Shown piece after piece: positions 17,754 to 28,193 of a DNA stretch of 64,000 nucleotides. A model generated the notes under the pieces. That model made no database searches. It was given only the letters and a program-made list of their open reading frames with translations, and was not told the DNA's origin. Numbering within the stretch: position 1 is the first letter of the stretch; the number at the start of each line of letters is the position of its first letter. The position numbers were made by a program, and so were the translations under genes. Origin of the DNA: Escherichia coli (lineage in GTDB: Bacteria; Pseudomonadota; Gammaproteobacteria; Enterobacterales; Enterobacteriaceae); assembly GCF_016903815.1 (NCBI RefSeq), contig NZ_CP069973.1; one strand, 5' to 3'.

Positions 17754-17954
17754 ATGCAACACGAACTACAGCCTGATTCACTGGTTGATTTGAAATTCAT
17801 CATGGCCGATACTGGCTTTGGTAAAACCTTCATCTATGACCGGATTAAGTCCGGCGACCTTCCTAAAGCCAAAGTTATCCACGGACGAGCAAGATGGTTA
17901 TATCGTGACCATTGTGAATTTAAAAATAAGCTCTTAAGCCGCGCCAATGGGTAA
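17754..17954 (+). CDS. torI: Excisionase / recombination directionality factor, TorI type
   Basis: 66-aa excisionase-family HTH protein immediately inside attR; I recall it as matching K-12 TorI. Confidence 0.7.
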   Translation: MQHELQPDSLVDLKFIMADTGFGKTFIYDRIKSGDLPKAKVIHGRARWLYRDHCEFKNKLLSRANG

Positions 17955-18027
17955 AATAGCGGGTAAAATATTTCTCACATCTAAAAAACACCATTCCAAT
18001 CAATCCCCTGCCGCTTCAAGTAGATGT

Positions 18028-18042
18028 CTGCAGGGGACACCA
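18028..18042 (+). repeat. attR-like direct repeat: 15 bp identical to the 3-prime end of tRNA-Arg (argW), CTGCAGGGGACACCA
   Basis: Exact 15-mer also present at 28336-28350; lies between torI and the next integrase. Confidence 0.7.
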
Positions 18043-18206
18043 TCCCGCTGTACACCAACGTCTACCATTGTCTATAAATCCCATGTAAACATATAAAAAT
18101 AAAGAGATTTTATTCTCATGACGTCCATTTCCGTCTATTGAAATCAAGTAAATCTATGGGGCATAATTAGGGGCATTGCTGGTTCGATTGTATATGTGCC
18201 CCCAAC

Positions 18207-19493
18207 ATGTCCAGAAATACCCTCAACAAATTAACAGACCGTCAGTGCAAAGCAGCTAAGCCACGAGACAAAACTTATAAATTGTCTGATGGTGGTGGTC
18301 TTTATCTTGAAGTATCCCAGACCGGGTCGAAGTATTGGCGAATGAAGTATCGCCGCCCATCAGATAAGAAAGAAGACAGACTTGCTTTTGGTGTATATCC
18401 AACCATTAGCTTACAAGACGCCAGAGAAAAACGAGACAACGCCAAAAAGTTGTTAGTCAAGGGGATAGATCCCAAAGCAGAGCAAAGAGCAGCAAAAGCA
18501 GAAGAAAAAGGCGCATTCACTTTTGAGACAATAGGACGTCAATGGGTTGAAAGCCACCAGATGTGGAACGAAGACCACCGAAAACGCGTACTTAGAAGCC
18601 TTGAAATGTATATTTTCCCTCACATTGGCACTTCGGATATTCGCAAACTGGAGGCGATGACAATTTTACCTTTGTTTAAGAAGGTAGATGACGCCGGGAA
18701 ACACGATACAGCCAACCGACTTAAACAACGAGTTAAGGACATCATACATAGCGCCCGTCTGAGCGGCATTAAGACAGAAATCATCACGAATGATCTCGAT
18801 GTCCGGTTAATGCAATATGAAACTAAGCATCATGCCGCACTACATCCCAGAGATTTACCAGACTTTTTCACTCGATTGGGCAGCTTTAAAGGTAATCCTC
18901 TTACCCGCCTTGCCATTGAGCTAACCATGTTGACATTTGTTCGTTCAAGCGAGTTAAGGTTTGCCCGTTGGAAAGAGTTTGACCTTGATCGGGCTGAGTG
19001 GATTATCCCTAAAAAAAGAGAGCCTATCGATGGTGTGAGGTTTTCCACCCGTGGCACAAAAACGGGAAAAGACGAACATATCGTGCTTCTTAGCCGTCAG
19101 GCTGTTTCTATTGTAAAGCAGTTGAGAGAACTAAGCGGAAGCTACGATGTTGTGTTTCCGAATGAAAGAAACACCAAAGGCGTGATGAGTGAAAACACGG
19201 TAAACAAGGCATTACGCTTAATGGGCTATAACACGCAAGAGGACGTAACTGGACATGGATTCCGTGCCACAGCCTGTAGTTCCCTGATGGAGTCCGGTTT
19301 GTGGCAGGAGGACGCAGTAGAGCGCCAGATGAGCCACAAAGAATATAAAGACGTTAAAAGAGCCTACAAGCACAAGGCTGATTACTTAGAAGAGCGCAAA
19401 CTAATGCTTCAATGGTGGGCAGATTATCTGGACGCCAATCGAGAAATACATATAAGCCCTTACGAGTTCGGAAGGAGAACACGCCGTGACTAA
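18207..19493 (+). CDS. Tyrosine integrase, P4 family
   Basis: 428 aa; P4-type N-terminus (KLTDRQCKAAKPRDKTYKLSDGGGLYLEV) and C-terminal LMLQWWADYLD motif. Confidence 0.9.
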   Translation: MSRNTLNKLTDRQCKAAKPRDKTYKLSDGGGLYLEVSQTGSKYWRMKYRRPSDKKEDRLAFGVYPTISLQDAREKRDNAKKLLVKGIDPKAEQRAAKAEEKGAFTFETIGRQWVESHQMWNEDHRKRVLRSLEMYIFPHIGTSDIRKLEAMTILPLFKKVDDAGKHDTANRLKQRVKDIIHSARLSGIKTEIITNDLDVRLMQYETKHHAALHPRDLPDFFTRLGSFKGNPLTRLAIELTMLTFVRSSELRFARWKEFDLDRAEWIIPKKREPIDGVRFSTRGTKTGKDEHIVLLSRQAVSIVKQLRELSGSYDVVFPNERNTKGVMSENTVNKALRLMGYNTQEDVTGHGFRATACSSLMESGLWQEDAVERQMSHKEYKDVKRAYKHKADYLEERKLMLQWWADYLDANREIHISPYEFGRRTRRD

Positions 19494-21556: not shown

Positions 21557-22609
21557 ATGGAATTATACGATAAAGACGCGAGTCTATCCACAAAATCACA
21601 AGCCGTAATCAATCACATCAATGGTCGCACATTAGCTTATGTGAGATCAGTTACGCACAAACGTAATGAATTAAAGGCGGAGAATAAACGCCAATCATCA
21701 AAGGCTAACCACTGCATACCACCAGCTTGGACAAAGAAGAAATGGCGTACAATGAGGCGAGCTTTGTTTACTCTGGATGTCGAATCAACTAGTGGTATCC
21801 CCTACTCCTTTACCTTCAGACCCGTTAAGGGAACAACGCCAGAGAAATTCAACAAAGCGTTAAAGGCACTTACCAGATGGTTGACTTCGAAAGGCAATCA
21901 GTGGGTTTACGTCATGGAGTGGGCTCAACACCAGTCAGAGCCGCATGTACACGCAATAATTATGGTGAACGAAAGAAGCATTAATGGGCAAGCAGGCAAA
22001 ATTGTCAGCAAATGGGTAACACTGGCAAACAATGCAATCCCATCAAATGTTCCTCCCCAGTGGGATCTAGATTTGAAAGGTCAGCAATATTCAGAGCCTA
22101 CAAGGTGTATAGGTAAACAGATTGATTACATGGCAAAACCCGAAACTAAGTTAAATGACTTTAATAGAGAGGCGAGCAAGAGCCTATATGATTGGTCAGA
22201 TGCCAACGTTTGGGGTTATTCGAATGGCTGGGCGCGGCATGAGATAAAAAAAGAAACACTTTCTATCACTGGCTTTCATGCTGTAAGACGCATACTAAAA
22301 GCCATTCAGGCATCAAGGAAAGACAACTACAAAGTTAAGCGACAGATACAGCGTACATTGAAACGACAAGACATAAATCGCTCACCAATCACCCCGTTCC
22401 AAGCACCGTTAATTAGCAAACACGATTGGGATTTATCAGTGATAGCGGTCACCAAAGAGGCAGAGACAGAGCGCAGGGAGTTACTATCCTCACAGACAAT
22501 AAACTCGAACAAAGTACAAACCCACCCGCTGTTAAGGATGTTAAGAAAAGCACGAGTGAGAGCATCCAGAGCCAGAAGAGAAAGCGGAGGTTATGACCAT
22601 TACTACTAG
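21557..22609 (+). CDS. Putative rolling-circle replication initiator (HUH endonuclease)
   Basis: 350 aa with an HUH-like motif (EPHVHAIIMV) and tyrosine-rich region; family assignment is from motif only. Confidence 0.45.
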   Translation: MELYDKDASLSTKSQAVINHINGRTLAYVRSVTHKRNELKAENKRQSSKANHCIPPAWTKKKWRTMRRALFTLDVESTSGIPYSFTFRPVKGTTPEKFNKALKALTRWLTSKGNQWVYVMEWAQHQSEPHVHAIIMVNERSINGQAGKIVSKWVTLANNAIPSNVPPQWDLDLKGQQYSEPTRCIGKQIDYMAKPETKLNDFNREASKSLYDWSDANVWGYSNGWARHEIKKETLSITGFHAVRRILKAIQASRKDNYKVKRQIQRTLKRQDINRSPITPFQAPLISKHDWDLSVIAVTKEAETERRELLSSQTINSNKVQTHPLLRMLRKARVRASRARRESGGYDHYY

Positions 22610-23407
22610 TAGTGACAGATCGTGACAAGGCAGAGCAAAAAACGACCAATATAAGAGAAATATCCCTGCCCAATCGCCAAAAGCGCGGAGCGCGGAGCGC
22701 GGCAAGCGCCGCGAGAGGCGCAAGAAGGCGAACCTATCCATTGAAACGGTCAGAAGAGCGCATCGCGCTCGATGACCGAAGTCCCCACTAACACCGTTAA
22801 CGAAAGATCAAAGTCTTAGAAAAAAATGACGTTTCTTTGAAGGGCTTCCATCCGTAAAAATCAAATTTTGAGATAAAGTACTTATAGAAATTAATCACTC
22901 TATAAGAGTGAGTTGACGTGAGTTTGAAGTGAGCAACATATTAAAAATATATATAATAATCAAACATATAATAACAACTACTGAGCAAAAATCACCAGAA
23001 AACAACGTCAACGTAACGTCACTCTGTAAGCACTTTTTCAGTCACTTTTTGGGTTGAATACACGTATAAATCCCCAACCATGAAATTTGAGCGCGTAAGC
23101 ACGACTCTGAAAGGCTTTTTATCTTTTAACCATTTAATATACCTGAGGTATTGAAGAAGATTCTGAGACATATACTAGAACTTTACCGTGCACGACTAAC
23201 AACATAAACGTTATATTTATATATAAATCAATGAGATAAATACATCCCCATCCAAAAAACAAGCATAACGCAAAATTGCGTTATCAACTTAAAAGGTACG
23301 ATTGAATCTGACAGTCTGCTCTGAGCGAAATGTGGGCACGTTCACCATAAGTCTCCAGATTGAAACGAAATGATAGTGTTAAATGTTCGATAGTTACTTT
23401 TCTAAGC

Positions 23408-24400
23408 TCAACGTTCGTAATAGTAATCCGACACCTCAGTAAAATCTATTTCCTCCCTAGAAAGTAATGATTCCATCTCATCTAGTTTATCGATTTGAGG
23501 CAAAACACTTGTTGGTGAAATCACAACATTAAAGTCCTCATTATATCGGTGACCTACCCTTGTGAGCTCTTTACCTAATTGCAACAATATATAATCACGT
23601 AAAATAAGTTGATTCCGTCTAAATCGAATAAGACGATAGTAATGGAAGAAATCAGAACATTTTGATGAATCATAATTTCTACCATTCCACCCGGTTTTCC
23701 TCGTAGCTCGGAATAATGCTTGCTCTTGCGTATTTTTCCAAATGCTAAAATCAAAGTGACTTTTCGGGTTAGGATTTTCGTATGTTGCTTGAGGATAAAA
23801 ATTAGTAACACCAAATTGATGCTTGTCAATGATCTTTAAAGTCCGATTTTGTTCAGACAACATCCGCCTTAAGGACCTAGGAATTTCGAAACGCATTAGT
23901 TTGTTTTTATCCAAGATTCTTAATTCTCTTGGAAGCATCTCATGATCCCGTTCTAAATATCTTTCACACCGTTTCGGCACATACTGAAAATACACTGAAA
24001 AAAAACAAAATATATTATCAGAAACGAGAGGAGTAATATGTATTTTTTCTTGCTCAGGAACGTTTTGAACAAAATAGTATGCCGTTCCTTGCCAAATCAA
24101 CGATTGCGCTACTGCCTCCACCAATTCACGTATTGTTTCATCTACCGAGTATTTCCTATATCTAGCTTGTAAATTTCCAAACATTTTACGTATGAGTTCT
24201 TCGTCGTTAGTTTCGACTTGAAACAAATTGGTATCACCGTGATTTACAAAATTAAAAACTCTAGCAAAATCCTCATAAAACATCCTTTGATAGAAACCTG
24301 GTCGTTCATTCTTAGACTTGGTCAATAGTCTATCAACAAAACTTAATTGCTCAGGATCGACGCTATAACCGTAAAGGGGTATATTCTTGATAATTTTCAT
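23408..24400 (-). CDS. Unclassified 330-aa soluble protein, downstream gene of the cargo operon
   Basis: Long ORF with AAGGA Shine-Dalgarno; start ATG overlaps the upstream stop as ATGA; no TM segment and no catalytic motif recognised. Confidence 0.6.
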   Translation of the reverse strand: MKIIKNIPLYGYSVDPEQLSFVDRLLTKSKNERPGFYQRMFYEDFARVFNFVNHGDTNLFQVETNDEELIRKMFGNLQARYRKYSVDETIRELVEAVAQSLIWQGTAYYFVQNVPEQEKIHITPLVSDNIFCFFSVYFQYVPKRCERYLERDHEMLPRELRILDKNKLMRFEIPRSLRRMLSEQNRTLKIIDKHQFGVTNFYPQATYENPNPKSHFDFSIWKNTQEQALFRATRKTGWNGRNYDSSKCSDFFHYYRLIRFRRNQLILRDYILLQLGKELTRVGHRYNEDFNVVISPTSVLPQIDKLDEMESLLSREEIDFTEVSDYYYER

Positions 24401-26874
24401 TCAAAATCCTTATCGTATTCCACGCCAAAACGACGAGCCAACTCACTAACATGGTAATCGATCTTGAAGTCAATTTGCTCGAGTTGCGGGAAAATTTCGA
24501 GAGCACAAAAGAGATGCGATGCATCTGAATGGGAGTTTAAGAACTCTCTGACAACTTTGTTCGTATGAGATTTCCCTCGATTCATTCCCATTTGATCGCT
24601 AAAGCCATCATGTCTTGCGCGGCGCTCAAATTCCATTTTCCAGTTAAGACGAATCATATCTCTCGGTGATGCGCACAAGCTGAAATTGCGCGGATTTGAA
24701 AGAATCATCATTCTCTTCAAATACTGCTGTTTGTTGGGAACAGACTCGAGCCAAGACTTAAACCTATCAAGTACTGTTTTAGATAGTTTTGCATTATCGA
24801 AATAAGCACTGTAAAGGATAGCAAAACCTAGAACTGACATCAGATCGTTGATCGCGGATGAAAGGAGATGCAGTCGAAACTCGTTGTTTATATCGAGTTT
24901 CGGATCTACAAATTTGGTATCTGATGCCAGCAATGAGAGAACCATGAACATAGGGAATACCTTGCTCAGTTTATTTTCATCATTCTGTTCAAGCGCATGT
25001 ATACATTCCTCAGCCAACTCAAAATATATCTGTCCAAAATGATCCGGTAGTTCATCATCTTGCTCTTGTTCAATGATATGTCCCACAATTTCCACCCTAC
25101 CAAGAATAGCTATAGCTTCATCCTGTGTAACGACAAACTGTTTGAGCATTTCAGCAATATTAATTTCTGGTAATGCGTATAGCTTTTCAGAGTAGTGCTC
25201 GTACTTTCTGTATCTCTCCAAGAGCAGAGAAAGTTCATTAAACCAATGGGGAAACTTCAAATGATTATGTAGGCTAGCGAGAACGACTTGCGTTGCGGCT
25301 TCCGGCATCTTCATGTTTATCAGTGAGTTAACGAAATCTGGAACCATGTTTACGTGAAAATCGCATACTTCTGGCAGAATTTTAGAATATTGTTGTAATA
25401 ACTTCTGAACCGCCAACTGCTGGACGTACTTTGGTTTGGATAATCTCTGTCCTTCAATCTCTTTTTCGAATTCGATACGTTCTACGATAAAGGCCAACTC
25501 AACCTGCAGAAAAGCAGGCAAAGTGTGTAGAGAGGTCTCTGTCCAGATATCATCTTTAAAGAACTGCTCCAATTCTTTCTCAAAAGTAATCATGCGGCGT
25601 AACATTTCAAGGCAAAGATTGCTGCCTAATGCAGCCCATGCATCCGCAATTCCAACTTTTATCACCTTTTCCTCAAAATAATTAACGACATCAGACGGTG
25701 TAAAGGCTTTTTCAATGATCGTCTTCATTTTCCGAAGTTCACGTATACCAATATCGAACTGAAACTGTTGTGCATAAGTTAATATACGAGATGAGAATAG
25801 ACTGATGAGATCCAACCCGAGCTTGAAATCACCGGCTTTGAATGCAAGTTCAATATGGCCTACCAACCTATTGATAATTTCATTCTCTAACCAAAGATAA
25901 TTTGGTTCTTCTTCAACCGTTAATTGGCTCCTTGTTTTTAAAGCAATGGATGTTACACTGTCGCCAGCTAAGAACCATTGCTTATGTTTTATTCGTCTAG
26001 GGAACCAGTAACTTTGATAATCAATTCTGTGTTTCTGATTAAGGTAATGAAGAAGTAATGCCGAATAAACATTACTGAGAGCAGGTAAATTATCTCCGAG
26101 TCCTACTTTTTCACATATCAGGCGATCATCAATGTAGTTTAACTGCTCAAAGGCCAAATGTGCGGCTTTAGAGTGATGATTAGCTAAAGATACTGAATTC
26201 TTGGGATTAGACGCACCTTCGATGTGTCGTGCAATTCGTGGGAGTATTTCACTTCGGGCTAACTGATTTAGGTCAAAAAAATTGAATAATCTTTGACCTA
26301 ATGGGAACAGAGCTAAGGAACTAACAAGTGTCAGCAATGTTCCCATTGCATAAACGAAAAGACCGGGTTCAACCCCGAACAAGTGGAGAGCAGTTGCACT
26401 AAGACAAAACACCGCAGAAAGCACTAAAGTCCGCGAATACACATTACCTACCTGCTCGGTAGTAAGCATTTGTATAATATCTCGCCGAAGTCTGGTATAT
26501 CCTGTACTTAGAATGATACCTATTGTAGCAAAGTATATTGAAAATATAGCGGTAAGTATCTGTGCGTACAACCTAAGTTGATCAATATTAAATTTTTTTT
26601 CATCATAGCTAAGAGGATGAAGCAAAATCGTATTATTCCGAATATAATCTTCAACAAAACCCAGTGCAAATAACGTTAATATGACCCATAACAAATTTTT
26701 TAAACCTACCAACGCAAAAGACATAAAAACATGAGCGTTAGACTTAGCTTTAAAAACAGACGTACGATGTATGTATGACGCACGTTCTAAAATAAATCTA
26801 ACCCTCACAAGATCTGTTCTTAATTTCCAGAACCACTTTTGAGAAATAAGCCAAACCTTCATTATATCAATCAA
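24397..26874 (-). CDS. Unclassified 825-aa membrane-anchored protein (about four N-terminal TM helices plus a roughly 630-aa helical cytoplasmic region)
   Basis: Uninterrupted 2.5-kb ORF in AT-rich DNA; hydrophobic segments near residues 50-74, 102-124, 148-168 and 172-192; no Walker or nuclease motif seen. The track start is TTG; the first ATG is at 26862. Confidence 0.6.
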   Translation of the reverse strand: MIDIMKVWLISQKWFWKLRTDLVRVRFILERASYIHRTSVFKAKSNAHVFMSFALVGLKNLLWVILTLFALGFVEDYIRNNTILLHPLSYDEKKFNIDQLRLYAQILTAIFSIYFATIGIILSTGYTRLRRDIIQMLTTEQVGNVYSRTLVLSAVFCLSATALHLFGVEPGLFVYAMGTLLTLVSSLALFPLGQRLFNFFDLNQLARSEILPRIARHIEGASNPKNSVSLANHHSKAAHLAFEQLNYIDDRLICEKVGLGDNLPALSNVYSALLLHYLNQKHRIDYQSYWFPRRIKHKQWFLAGDSVTSIALKTRSQLTVEEEPNYLWLENEIINRLVGHIELAFKAGDFKLGLDLISLFSSRILTYAQQFQFDIGIRELRKMKTIIEKAFTPSDVVNYFEEKVIKVGIADAWAALGSNLCLEMLRRMITFEKELEQFFKDDIWTETSLHTLPAFLQVELAFIVERIEFEKEIEGQRLSKPKYVQQLAVQKLLQQYSKILPEVCDFHVNMVPDFVNSLINMKMPEAATQVVLASLHNHLKFPHWFNELSLLLERYRKYEHYSEKLYALPEINIAEMLKQFVVTQDEAIAILGRVEIVGHIIEQEQDDELPDHFGQIYFELAEECIHALEQNDENKLSKVFPMFMVLSLLASDTKFVDPKLDINNEFRLHLLSSAINDLMSVLGFAILYSAYFDNAKLSKTVLDRFKSWLESVPNKQQYLKRMMILSNPRNFSLCASPRDMIRLNWKMEFERRARHDGFSDQMGMNRGKSHTNKVVREFLNSHSDASHLFCALEIFPQLEQIDFKIDYHVSELARRFGVEYDKDFE

Positions 26875-27055
26875 GTGATACCTGCCTTCTCATCTCTACA
26901 TGCAACATAAAAATGCTTACTATGGTGGCAAACAAAATCAAGAATCATATGTTTGAACACTTTTTACGCACGAATTATCCGGTGTAAGATACTTATAGTC
27001 AAATGGCAGGGCTAATCTCATCTGTATTGAGCTATTAACAGCCATATGTAAGACT

Positions 27056-27084
27056 AAGAAACGCGCCCAGCAAAGGCGCGTTCT
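27056..27084 (-). terminator. Hairpin terminator after the small minus-strand ORF
   Basis: ACGCGCC-TTTGCTG-GGCGCGT stem-loop followed by a T-rich tract on the minus strand. Confidence 0.4.
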
Positions 27085-27264
27085 GCATCAGGTAAGTTTG
27101 CTGGGGTCTACGGTTTCCATCCAATCTGGAGCAATTCCCAAACGTTCCGCTATCTCTTCGTTGGTCATGTCTTCAGTTGAGAAATTAGCCAGAGAATCGT
27201 TAACTTCAGGATAGTCAGGGGAGAGTAACAGGTATTCCCGCAACGCTTTCAGATCTTTTTCCAT
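27085..27264 (-). CDS. Small ORF (59 aa) upstream of the cargo operon, not on the ORF track
   Basis: My own translation MEKDLKALREYLLLSPDYPEVNDSLANFSTEDMTNEEIAERLGIAPDWMETVDPSKLT; followed on the minus strand by a hairpin. Confidence 0.3.
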
Positions 27265-27431
27265 TTTAACGCTCCTTGTTTATTGACAGTCGAACGATGG
27301 TGAAGATTCTTGCCATCTCAAGTACAGGCAAGAAAATCCACCAGAACACCAAATTATCTCATAAGGTTAAATCGGTGTCGGGCTATTTCTTTCGGCTAGG
27401 TGAGTGTACCGCCTTAACCACCGGCAATTAT

Positions 27432-27564
27432 CATTGTCTCAATTGGGTATACCGTAATGACAAGGTGATACAAAGTCTCAATAGGGTTGTATAGGAACAT
27501 TTTGACTACACAAAATGCATTATGTATCATTTGCACTTATATTCACAACCCTATTGAGACAATG
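27432..27564. promoter_or_regulatory. res-like repeat cluster directly upstream of the serine recombinase gene
   Basis: 16-bp inverted repeat GTCTCAATAGGGTTGT (27475-27490) / ACAACCCTATTGAGAC (27545-27560) plus a partial direct copy CATTGTCTCAAT at 27432-27443. Confidence 0.45.
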
Positions 27565-27566
27565 CA

Positions 27567-28193
27567 ATGAACGTTAGAATTTACTGCCGAGCATCAACTG
27601 AGGGGCAACACGCTGATCGAGCACTTACCAGCCTACGTGAATTTTCAAAATCAAAAGGCTGGCAGATTGCAGGAGAGTATATAGAAAATGCTAGCGGGGC
27701 GAAGCTTGAGCGCGTAGAGCTTATGCGGCTATTGTCTGAAGCCCAGTCCGGCGATCTGTTGCTAGTGGAAGCTATAGATCGTCTGAGTCGCCTAGAACAT
27801 AGCGCATGGGTCGAACTGAAAGATACGCTCAACCGAAAAGGGTTAATCATCGTATCAATGGATTTACCAACGAGCTGGCAGATGGTCGAGATGGCAGGCA
27901 ATGACCTAACCAGCGGCATCCTGAGAGCCGTAAATGCCATGTTGATTGATATCCTTGCCACAATGGCACGGCAGGATTACGAAACACGTCGTAAACGCCA
28001 ACAGCAAGGCATTGAGCGAGCTAAAAGCGAAGGAATATACATTGGCAGGGAGAAAAATCAGGAAGCCCGAGAGATCGTTAGAGAGATGTTGGAGCAAGGA
28101 GTAAAACCTGAACTCATCATGAAGGCAGCAGGAATCAGCCGAGCGACTTACTACCGTATAAAAAGTGAGCTGTCAGTCGTAAAATCAGAATAA
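27567..28193 (+). CDS. Serine recombinase (resolvase/invertase family)
   Basis: 208 aa; N-terminal VRIYCRASTEGQ catalytic-serine motif and C-terminal HTH. Confidence 0.85.
   Translation: MNVRIYCRASTEGQHADRALTSLREFSKSKGWQIAGEYIENASGAKLERVELMRLLSEAQSGDLLLVEAIDRLSRLEHSAWVELKDTLNRKGLIIVSMDLPTSWQMVEMAGNDLTSGILRAVNAMLIDILATMARQDYETRRKRQQQGIERAKSEGIYIGREKNQEAREIVREMLEQGVKPELIMKAAGISRATYYRIKSELSVVKSE

What the first reader, a model, noticed from the sequence alone, without database searches (positions are those of the whole stretch)
26860..27084. Start-codon ambiguity and own promoter for the cargo operon
The ORF track starts the large gene at TTG (26874), but the first ATG is at 26862 (MKVWLIS...). 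A hairpin terminator at 27056-27084 ends the upstream small ORF, so the operon must have its own promoter in the AT-rich 26875-27055 interval.
Basis: seen in the sequence. Interest (0 to 1): 0.3.

Follow-up and report, generated by a model that had tools for sequence, protein, structure and literature searches.

The report
Start codon and promoter of island cargo
This stretch is the ordinary control region (terminator of the gene before it, its own promoter, ribosome-binding site and a TTG start codon) of a two-gene cassette that was dropped into a variable slot of an E. coli genomic island; comparison with relatives shows that the TTG, not the nearby ATG used in the public annotation, is the family's start codon.

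Summary
On the minus strand a TTG (26874) and an in-frame ATG (26862) both open the 825/821-aa gene. A GC-rich hairpin (27083-27059) lies 4 nt after the stop of a 58-aa ORF. The 181-bp gap between them is 36.5% G+C.

Start codon: comparison favours the TTG. In 29 homologous loci the aligned codon is TTG 26, GTG 2, ATG 1, and never another Leu codon. A purine-rich Shine-Dalgarno sequence sits 4-9 nt upstream. Residues 2-8 (I-D-x-L-K-I-W) are conserved. The E. coli ATG is codon 5, which is ATA (Ile) in the closest relatives. RefSeq nevertheless starts the E. coli protein at the ATG.

Promoter: sister islands share the backbone up to the hairpin tail (27057) and carry unrelated cargo beyond it, once on the opposite strand. 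The 5' region therefore travels with the cassette. The best candidate is TTGACT-17-GATAAT (27002-26974), conserved in position in 6 of 9 enterobacterial relatives. No transcript data were available.

Verdict: ordinary gene-expression signals, and a useful annotation correction.

Side finding: the cassette is an uncharacterised pair, a membrane/helical 825-aa protein and a 330-aa protein with a predicted phage-portal-like fold, sitting in a defence-type hotspot.

The parts
26872..26874 (-). TTG initiation codon of gene A (family-conserved start)
   Evidence: The aligned codon is TTG 26, GTG 2, ATG 1 in 29 loci. It is also TTG in a relative of 28% identity. 65 of 120 homologue clusters are annotated to start here, and 19 of 20 upstream-extended ones have Leu here.
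26881..26889 (-). Shine-Dalgarno sequence GAAGGCAGG serving the TTG
   Evidence: Anti-SD duplex is -9.2 kcal/mol at a short spacing to the TTG. For the ATG, whose upstream window holds no SD at usable spacing, it is -2.8 kcal/mol. AAGGNAGG plus a 6-nt spacer is conserved in 9 enterobacterial loci.
26860..26862 (-). In-frame ATG, codon 5 (Met in E. coli; Ile or Leu in nearly all homologues, ATA in the closest relatives); the start used by RefSeq
   Evidence: At this position 85 of 90 homologues have L or I and only 4 have M.
26890..26892 (-). In-frame TGA that closes the reading frame upstream of the TTG
   Evidence: Read from the sequence. No start further upstream is possible.
26974..27002 (-). 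Best promoter candidate P1: TTGACT (27002-26997), 17 nt, GATAAT (26979-26974). Predicted transcription start near 26967, giving a leader of about 93 nt.
   Evidence: 10 of 12 consensus matches. PWM score 12.7 bits, reached by 2.3% of shuffles of the interval and 0.6% of window tiles. It is the top-scoring site at about -100 from the start in the window, L026, L029, L022 and L031, and at -89 in L034. The hexamers are 68% conserved against 41% for the spacer.
26904..26931 (-). Second promoter candidate P2: TTGCCA, 16 nt, TATGTT. The TATGTTG block is conserved about 30 nt upstream of the start.
   Evidence: 9 of 12 matches. PWM score 10.2 bits, reached by 19% of shuffles. TATGTTG is conserved in the enterobacterial loci, and TATATGT-like sequence occurs in distant ones.
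27049..27083 (-). Terminator-like hairpin (27083-27059) plus U-rich tail of the 58-aa ORF; the last element of the island backbone before the cargo
   Evidence: It is conserved in sister islands with stem pairing kept, and homology ends at 27057.
27088..27264 (-). 58-aa backbone ORF with a weak helix-turn-helix signature; SD AAGGAG 7 nt before its ATG
   Evidence: PHROG_35119, E = 4.5e-30. Sub-threshold HTH matches. Present in 549 E. coli genomes together with the serine recombinase.
24397..26874 (-). Gene A, 825 aa: N-terminal membrane helices followed by a large all-helical body
   Evidence: AF2 pLDDT 88.4. No Pfam, PADLOC or NCBIfam family. 324 close homologues and 844 representative clusters.
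23408..24400 (-). Gene B, 330 aa, overlapping gene A by 4 nt (ATGA); predicted portal-like fold
   Evidence: Always found next to gene A.
23265..23284 (-). Terminator-like hairpin after gene B: ATAACGCAA-TT-TTGCGTTAT, then GCTTGTTTTTT
   Evidence: 1 found, 0.2 expected.
23127..27056 (-). Cargo cassette as delimited by loss of homology with sister islands

Best explanation
The interval is the 5' control region of a horizontally acquired two-gene cassette (about 23127-27056, minus strand). The cassette sits in the variable slot of a small integrase-bearing island inserted next to the KpLE1/CPS-53 prophage remnant at the argW locus.

Terminator (shown as sequence, function inferred): the hairpin at 27083-27059 belongs to the island backbone. 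It most likely terminates the transcript of the 58-aa ORF.

Promoter (inferred): the cassette brings its own sigma-70-type promoter. The best candidate is TTGACT-17-GATAAT at 27002-26974, which would give an unstructured leader of about 93 nt. A weaker proximal site, TTGCCA-16-TATGTT at 26931-26904, is the alternative.

Translation start (shown by comparison): translation of gene A begins at TTG 26874. The ribosome is positioned by GAAGGCAGG a few nucleotides upstream. This TTG is the ancestral start codon, conserved across the family.

The ATG (shown by comparison): ATG 26862 arose from a single ATA-to-ATG change (Ile5 to Met) in the E. coli lineage. It lacks a Shine-Dalgarno sequence at usable spacing. 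It is what led automated annotation to shorten the protein by four residues.

Why TTG (inferred): a weak start codon kept in about 90% of family members suggests selection for low expression of the membrane protein. Gene B is translated from an ATG overlapping the gene A stop (ATGA).
For: Start codon:
- The aligned codon is TTG 26, GTG 2, ATG 1 in 29 loci that are 42-75% identical, and never CTN or TTA. It is also TTG in a relative of 28% identity.
- An SD-like purine run lies 4-9 nt upstream. The anti-SD duplex is -9.2 kcal/mol for the TTG and -2.8 for the ATG.
- About half of the loci have no in-frame ATG within 20 codons on either side.
- Residues 2-8 are conserved (I 73/87, D 77/87, L/I 85/90, K, I/V, W 87/90). 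Codons 2-3 show synonymous variation (ATT/ATC/ATA, GAT/GAC). Residues 2-11 are modelled as a helix with pLDDT 87.
- Codon 5 is ATA in the closest relatives.
- NCBI itself starts the Pectobacterium and Morganella orthologues (P0006, P0024) and a third orthologue (P0002) at the TTG.

Cassette boundary:
- Sister islands are about 83% identical from 27057 outward and unrelated inward. The other boundary is near 23125.
- The slot holds four different cargos, one of them on the opposite strand.

Promoter:
- P1 matches 10 of 12 consensus positions. Its score is rare in shuffles (2.3%) and in window tiles (0.6%).
- It is positionally conserved in 6 of 9 enterobacterial loci, with hexamers more conserved than the spacer.
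- In L029 the upstream neighbour is divergent, so that copy cannot depend on read-through.
Against: - There are no transcript or peptide data. The promoter position is a consensus-based prediction.
- P1 is absent from the two Pectobacterium loci and weak in L033.
- Promoter-like hits are only mildly enriched in this AT-rich region (7 found, 2.8 ± 2.0 expected).
- The hairpin's U-tract is weak, so read-through from the 58-aa ORF may add to expression.
- ATG is intrinsically a stronger initiator than TTG (general knowledge). It lies in an unstructured A/U-rich context, so in E. coli some or even most initiation could occur at 26862 despite the poor SD spacing.
- The 29 loci are not fully independent samples.
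Confidence: 0.72

Rival explanations
1. In E. coli the functional start is ATG 26862, as in RefSeq. The Ile5-to-Met change created a better initiator that now takes over, and the TTG is bypassed or minor.
For: PGAP chooses it and makes the analogous choice in Enterobacter hormaechei. ATG is a stronger start codon than TTG (general knowledge). The region is unstructured.
Against: There is no SD at usable spacing: the purine run ends 18 nt upstream and the duplex is -2.8 kcal/mol. The four preceding codons encode the conserved M/L-I-D-x. The TTG and its SD are intact in E. coli. Only 4 of 90 homologues have Met at this position.
Confidence: 0.2
2. The operon has no promoter of its own. It is transcribed by read-through from the promoter of the 58-aa ORF, and the hairpin is leaky or acts only as an RNA-stabilising element.
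For: The two are co-directional. The hairpin tail has only 3 consecutive U. The terminator pattern is at chance frequency.
Against: The cassette boundary lies 3' of the hairpin. The same cassette and 5' region occur behind unrelated or divergent genes elsewhere. An alternative cargo in the same slot lies on the opposite strand. A high-scoring, positionally conserved -35/-10 pair lies inside the gap.
Confidence: 0.12
3. The real promoter is the proximal site TTGCCA-16-TATGTT (26931-26904), giving a leader of about 23 nt. The distal TTGACT/GATAAT pair is fortuitous or secondary.
For: The TATGTTG block is the most widely conserved non-coding element. It is present in all 9 enterobacterial loci, including those that lack P1, and it resembles TATATGT found about 30 nt upstream of the start in distant loci.
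Against: Its score is lower, 10.2 bits, reached by 19% of shuffles. The -35 is not conserved. In many distant loci the motif lacks the key T at position 6 of the -10 hexamer.
Confidence: 0.3

Closest known systems
Intrinsic (Rho-independent) terminator followed by a sigma-70 promoter, separating adjacent co-directional transcription units in Enterobacteria
   Same: A GC-rich stem-loop right after a stop codon with a U-rich tail, then a -35/-10 pair with 17-nt spacing in an AT-rich gap, then an SD and a start codon.
   Different: The U-tract is interrupted (UUUCUUAGUCUU). The promoter is predicted, not mapped.
Genes initiated at TTG with a canonical Shine-Dalgarno sequence (a small minority of E. 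coli genes; general knowledge)
   Same: A purine-rich SD a few nucleotides before a TTG that is read as fMet.
   Different: Here the TTG is kept in about 90% of sampled family members across several proteobacterial classes. That is a family-wide trait rather than a sporadic one. A secondary ATG 4 codons downstream is specific to E. coli.
Hotspots of anti-phage systems in P2-like phages and P4-like satellites (PMC9122126, abstract seen)
   Same: A conserved mobile-element backbone with one slot where unrelated cargo cassettes are exchanged. Two of the four cargos seen here match defence models: PDC-S06 and SIR2-STAND.
   Different: The annotated backbone genes are not P4-like: a tyrosine integrase, AlpA-like HTH proteins, a rolling-circle Rep-like protein, the 58-aa ORF and a serine recombinase. 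No anti-phage activity was tested.
Phage portal proteins (comparison for gene B only)
   Different: No sequence-family match. At 330 aa it is at the small end of the matched portals (roughly 285-830 aa). It is not next to terminase or capsid genes and is instead always paired with an 825-aa membrane protein. Model confidence is moderate (pLDDT 68).

Membership tests
Translation start at a non-ATG codon (TTG) with Shine-Dalgarno | The aligned codon is restricted to initiator codons (ATG/GTG/TTG) across homologues | tested here: met
   TTG 26, GTG 2, ATG 1 of 29, with no CTN or TTA. TTG also at 28% identity.
Translation start at a non-ATG codon (TTG) with Shine-Dalgarno | SD complementary to the 16S rRNA 3' end at about 4-10 nt spacing | tested here: met
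   GAAGGCAGG, duplex -9.2 kcal/mol. Conserved in the enterobacterial loci.
Translation start at a non-ATG codon (TTG) with Shine-Dalgarno | Protein-level conservation begins at the codon after the start and not before it | tested here: met
   Residues 2-8 are conserved. Upstream, in-frame stops lie 1-20 codons away and there is no conserved peptide.
Translation start at a non-ATG codon (TTG) with Shine-Dalgarno | Direct evidence of initiation (N-terminal peptide, initiating-ribosome footprint) | not testable with these tools
   No proteomic or ribosome-profiling data are accessible.
Sigma-70 promoter | -35 and -10 hexamers close to consensus with 16-18 nt spacing | tested here: met
   TTGACT-17-GATAAT, 10 of 12. 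12.7 bits, reached by 2.3% of shuffles.
Sigma-70 promoter | Conserved position and hexamers in orthologous loci | tested here: inconclusive
   Top site at about -100 in 5 loci and at -89 in a sixth, but missing in 3 of 9. Hexamers 68% conserved against 41% for the spacer.
Sigma-70 promoter | Mapped transcription start | not testable with these tools
   No RNA data.
Intrinsic terminator | GC-rich stem-loop directly downstream of a stop codon | tested here: met
   10 pairs, 6 G-C, 4 nt after the TGA.
Intrinsic terminator | Uninterrupted U-tract after the stem | tested here: inconclusive
   UUUCUUAG: 5 U in 8 but only 3 consecutive.
Intrinsic terminator | Stem maintained in related sequences | tested here: met
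   Kept in strain 4 and O157 islands that are about 83% identical. One C-to-T change in the 5' arm still gives a G-U pair. Only 3 sequences were compared.
Known or candidate anti-phage defence systems (PADLOC-DB v2.0.0) | HMM match of gene A or gene B to a catalogued system protein | tested here: not met
   No family at E <= 0.01.
Phage portal protein (gene B) | Portal fold | tested here: met
   [not shown]
Phage portal protein (gene B) | Sequence membership in a portal family (Pfam/PHROG) | tested here: not met
   No Pfam, PHROG or PDB-profile hit.
Phage portal protein (gene B) | Encoded in a head-morphogenesis cluster next to terminase and capsid genes | tested here: not met
   In all 12 annotated contexts it follows gene A, with no terminase or capsid gene nearby.
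Phage portal protein (gene B) | Dodecameric ring assembly | not tested
   No multimer prediction was run.

The most novel reading that the evidence does not exclude
The cassette is a previously undescribed two-gene anti-phage system, and its control region keeps a weak TTG start across the family. A portal-fold protein (gene B) would act as a mimic or sensor of the phage head-assembly or packaging machinery. It would be coupled to a large membrane-anchored helical protein (gene A) acting as effector. The conserved weak start would hold the potentially toxic membrane protein at a low level.
Probability: 0.35. Interest if true: 0.7.

Novelty: new member of a known kind. Interest (0 to 1): 0.33.

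Why it matters
For the finding as given, the value is practical.
- It corrects the start of a protein annotated identically in about 150 complete E. coli genomes (RefSeq WP_020233471.1 lacks the first four residues, M-I-D-I).
- It shows how a single Ile-to-Met change can mislead start-codon prediction.
- It defines the expression unit (promoter to terminator, about 3.9 kb) that would have to be cloned to test the cassette.

The family-wide retention of a TTG start is a modest but real oddity that points to selection for low expression.

The larger interest lies beside the finding. The cassette is a widespread, uncharacterised gene pair. Its members are 63-74% identical between E. coli and bacteria of other proteobacterial classes. 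It sits in a slot that elsewhere holds defence genes, and one partner is predicted to have a portal-like fold.

Tried and rejected
- Conserved RNA structure or riboswitch in the leader. RNAalifold on 7 enterobacterial leaders gave -1.4 kcal/mol with no covariation. The E. coli leader folds worse than its shuffles, z = +1.45. Rejected.
- Upstream ORF coupled to the TTG through the overlapping TGA (T-TGA). Such uORFs are present in some loci, but they vary in length and sequence and are absent in several. Rejected.
- The 35-aa ORF at 27045-26938 inside the gap. It has no SD and overlaps P1. It was not pursued as a gene.
- Family assignment of genes A and B. Pfam, PADLOC, NCBIfam and PHROGs gave nothing. 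Ten distant gene A relatives gave nothing in Pfam either.
- Fold of gene A against the PDB. Only generic helical-repeat matches appeared, with TM-score <= 0.22 normalised to the query.
- Profile of gene B against PDB sequences. Nothing.
- Literature. Searches for the accessions, for portal-like defence proteins and for argW hotspots found nothing relevant.
- tRNA at the island border. None in the window. The island follows torI of the KpLE1 remnant, and argW lies outside the window.
- The AlphaFold-database fold library was not available.
Full report
**Setting.** The window is E. coli chromosome. It contains torI, the right end of the KpLE1/CPS-53 prophage remnant, at 17754-17954. A tyrosine integrase follows at 18207-19493. 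Next come small HTH genes and a rolling-circle Rep-like gene (21557-22609). Two large minus-strand genes lie at 26874-24397 and 24400-23408, and a 58-aa minus-strand ORF at 27264-27088. A serine recombinase lies at 27567-28193. Beyond it are the csc sucrose genes, dsdA, emrYK and evgAS. ARAGORN finds no tRNA in the window. In strains without the prophage the same island lies directly beside tRNA-Arg. The finding concerns the gap between the 58-aa ORF and the first large gene, all on the minus strand.

**Observation.** It is correct. TTG lies at 26874-26872 and an in-frame ATG at 26862-26860 (MKVWLIS...). An in-frame TGA at 26892-26890 rules out any start further upstream. The hairpin is at 27083-27059 and begins 4 nt after the stop of the 58-aa ORF. 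It has 10 pairs, 6 of them G-C, and is followed by TTTCTTAGTCTT. The 71-nt fold is -21.8 kcal/mol with z = -2.4. As a bare pattern the terminator is at chance frequency in this region (1 found, 0.8 expected). The gap 26875-27055 is 36.5% G+C against 46.3% for the window, but the two cargo genes are equally AT-rich.

**Start codon.** RefSeq starts the protein at the ATG (WP_020233471.1, 821 aa). Comparison favours the TTG.
- A search returned 324 homologues, and the 120 best listed are 63-74% identical to the E. coli protein. They come from very diverse Proteobacteria.
- Most of these begin M-I-D-x-L-K-I-W, or L-I-D-... where the caller printed the literal codon.
- In an alignment of the 120 best, 65 are annotated to start exactly at the position of E. 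coli's TTG. Of the 20 that extend upstream, 19 have Leu there. Residues 2-8 are strongly conserved. E. coli Met5 is Leu or Ile in 85 of 90.
- I fetched DNA for 28 homologous loci. With the window that makes 29, and the aligned codon is TTG in 26, GTG in 2 and ATG in 1. It is never another Leu codon.
- A relative of only 28% identity also starts at TTG.
- About half of the loci have no in-frame ATG within 20 codons on either side.
- A purine-rich SD precedes the codon. In E. coli it is GAAGGCAGG (26889-26881), and the anti-SD duplex is -9.2 kcal/mol. The window upstream of the ATG gives -2.8 kcal/mol, and the SD ends 18 nt before the ATG.
- In the closest relatives codon 5 is ATA, so one A-to-G change made the E. 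coli ATG.
- An Enterobacter hormaechei orthologue has an ATG at codon 4 and is likewise annotated from it, although its TTG and SD are intact.
- NCBI starts the Pectobacterium and Morganella orthologues (P0006, P0024) and a third orthologue (P0002) at the TTG.

The TTG is therefore the family's start and very probably the main E. coli start. Use of the ATG as well cannot be excluded without peptide data. The two products would differ by four residues of an N-terminal helix.

**Cassette boundary and the hairpin.** About 360 E. coli genomes, including O157:H7, match the window at about 83% identity from 27057 outward. That stretch covers the hairpin, the 58-aa ORF and the recombinase. They do not match inward. 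On the other side homology with a sister island ends near 23125. The cargo cassette is thus about 23127-27056. It comprises 182 bp of 5' region, gene A, gene B (ATGA overlap) and a terminator-like hairpin at 23284-23265. The 27083-27059 hairpin is a backbone element, and its stem is kept in the sister islands.

The slot holds at least four cargos in E. coli:
- this gene pair;
- a 470-aa protein of PHROG_13435;
- a PDC-S06 AAA ATPase on the opposite strand;
- a SIR2-STAND protein.

Cargo in either orientation cannot rely on read-through from the 58-aa ORF.

**Promoter.** The consensus scan finds TTGACT-17-GATAAT at 27002-26974 (10 of 12) and TTGCCA-16-TATGTT at 26931-26904 (9 of 12). With a simple position-weight matrix built from textbook consensus frequencies, the first scores 12.7 bits. 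That score is reached by 2.3% of shuffles of the gap and by 0.6% of 181-nt tiles of the window. The second scores 10.2 bits, reached by 19% of shuffles. In nine enterobacterial loci carrying the cassette in unrelated contexts, the distal site is the top hit at about -100 from the start in five. These include one with an identical TTGACT-17-GATAAT. It is the top hit at -89 in a sixth, and it is missing in the two Pectobacterium loci and weak in one other. The hexamers are more conserved than the spacer, 68% against 41%. The TATGTTG block about 30 nt before the start is conserved in all nine, and a TATATGT-like motif sits at the same distance in distant loci. The proximal site, or some other role for that block, therefore stays open. 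In Morganella-type loci the upstream gene is divergent, so that copy of the cassette must be self-sufficient. I conclude that an own promoter is well supported as an inference. I put P1 at about 55% and P2 at about 30%.

**Things that are not there.** The leader has no conserved RNA structure. There is no conserved upstream ORF.

**What the cargo is.** Genes A and B are always adjacent. They lie at prophage ends next to integrases, or in islands beside toxin-antitoxin, SIR2 or T6SS-related genes. The pairing persists in relatives of 26-28% identity. Neither protein matches Pfam, PADLOC, NCBIfam or PHROGs.
- Gene A is modelled with high confidence (pLDDT 88). It has long N-terminal hydrophobic helices and a large helical body, and it has no informative PDB match.

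The slot context suggests a defence role. This is association only and was not tested.

**Verdict.** The signals are ordinary: a terminator, a promoter, an SD and a TTG start. The useful results are the resolution of the start in favour of the TTG, which differs from RefSeq, the cassette boundaries, and a specific promoter prediction. The conserved TTG start and the portal-like partner are the only unusual points.

Noticed in passing
[not shown]
   Followed up: partly
window about 23127-27056, compared with L003 8433-9845, L035 4238-6814 and L036 4073-6553: The slot between the Rep-like gene and the 58-aa ORF of this argW island holds four unrelated cargos in different E. coli strains. Besides this pair they are a 470-aa PHROG_13435 protein (O157:H7 and others), a PDC-S06 AAA ATPase on the opposite strand, and a SIR2-STAND protein. 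It behaves as a defence-type hotspot.
   Followed up: partly
window 24397-26874: Gene A homologues are 63-74% identical between E. coli and alpha-, beta- and gammaproteobacteria and Desulfobacterales/Trichloromonas. This points to recent wide horizontal spread. The wider family has 844 representative clusters and no Pfam model.
   Followed up: partly
window 27088-27264 (minus) and 27567-28193 (plus): The 58-aa ORF (PHROG_35119, weak helix-turn-helix signature) is divergently paired with a serine recombinase in 549 E. coli genomes. It may be a small regulator or a directionality factor for that recombinase.
   Followed up: no
window 17754-19493: The island integrase follows torI, the end of the KpLE1/CPS-53 remnant, and there is no tRNA gene in the window. 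In strain 4 the same island abuts tRNA-Arg directly. Here the island therefore appears to be integrated in tandem with the prophage at the argW site.
   Followed up: partly
window 21557-22609: The Rep-like ORF is 350 aa from its first ATG, but RefSeq annotates 285 aa (start equivalent to window 21752), and sister islands annotate 215 aa. This is a second start-codon discrepancy in the same island.
   Followed up: no
window about 27200, and within 23300-27600 in other strains: Some strains carry IS insertions in or next to the cassette. IS903B interrupts the match near the 58-aa ORF in AR_0137, and IS1A lies within the cassette region in NZ_OZ501684.
   Followed up: no
L034 3990-4010 (Enterobacter hormaechei): The orthologue is annotated from an ATG at codon 4, although the conserved TTG and SD lie just upstream. 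This is the same annotation artefact as in E. coli.
   Followed up: yes
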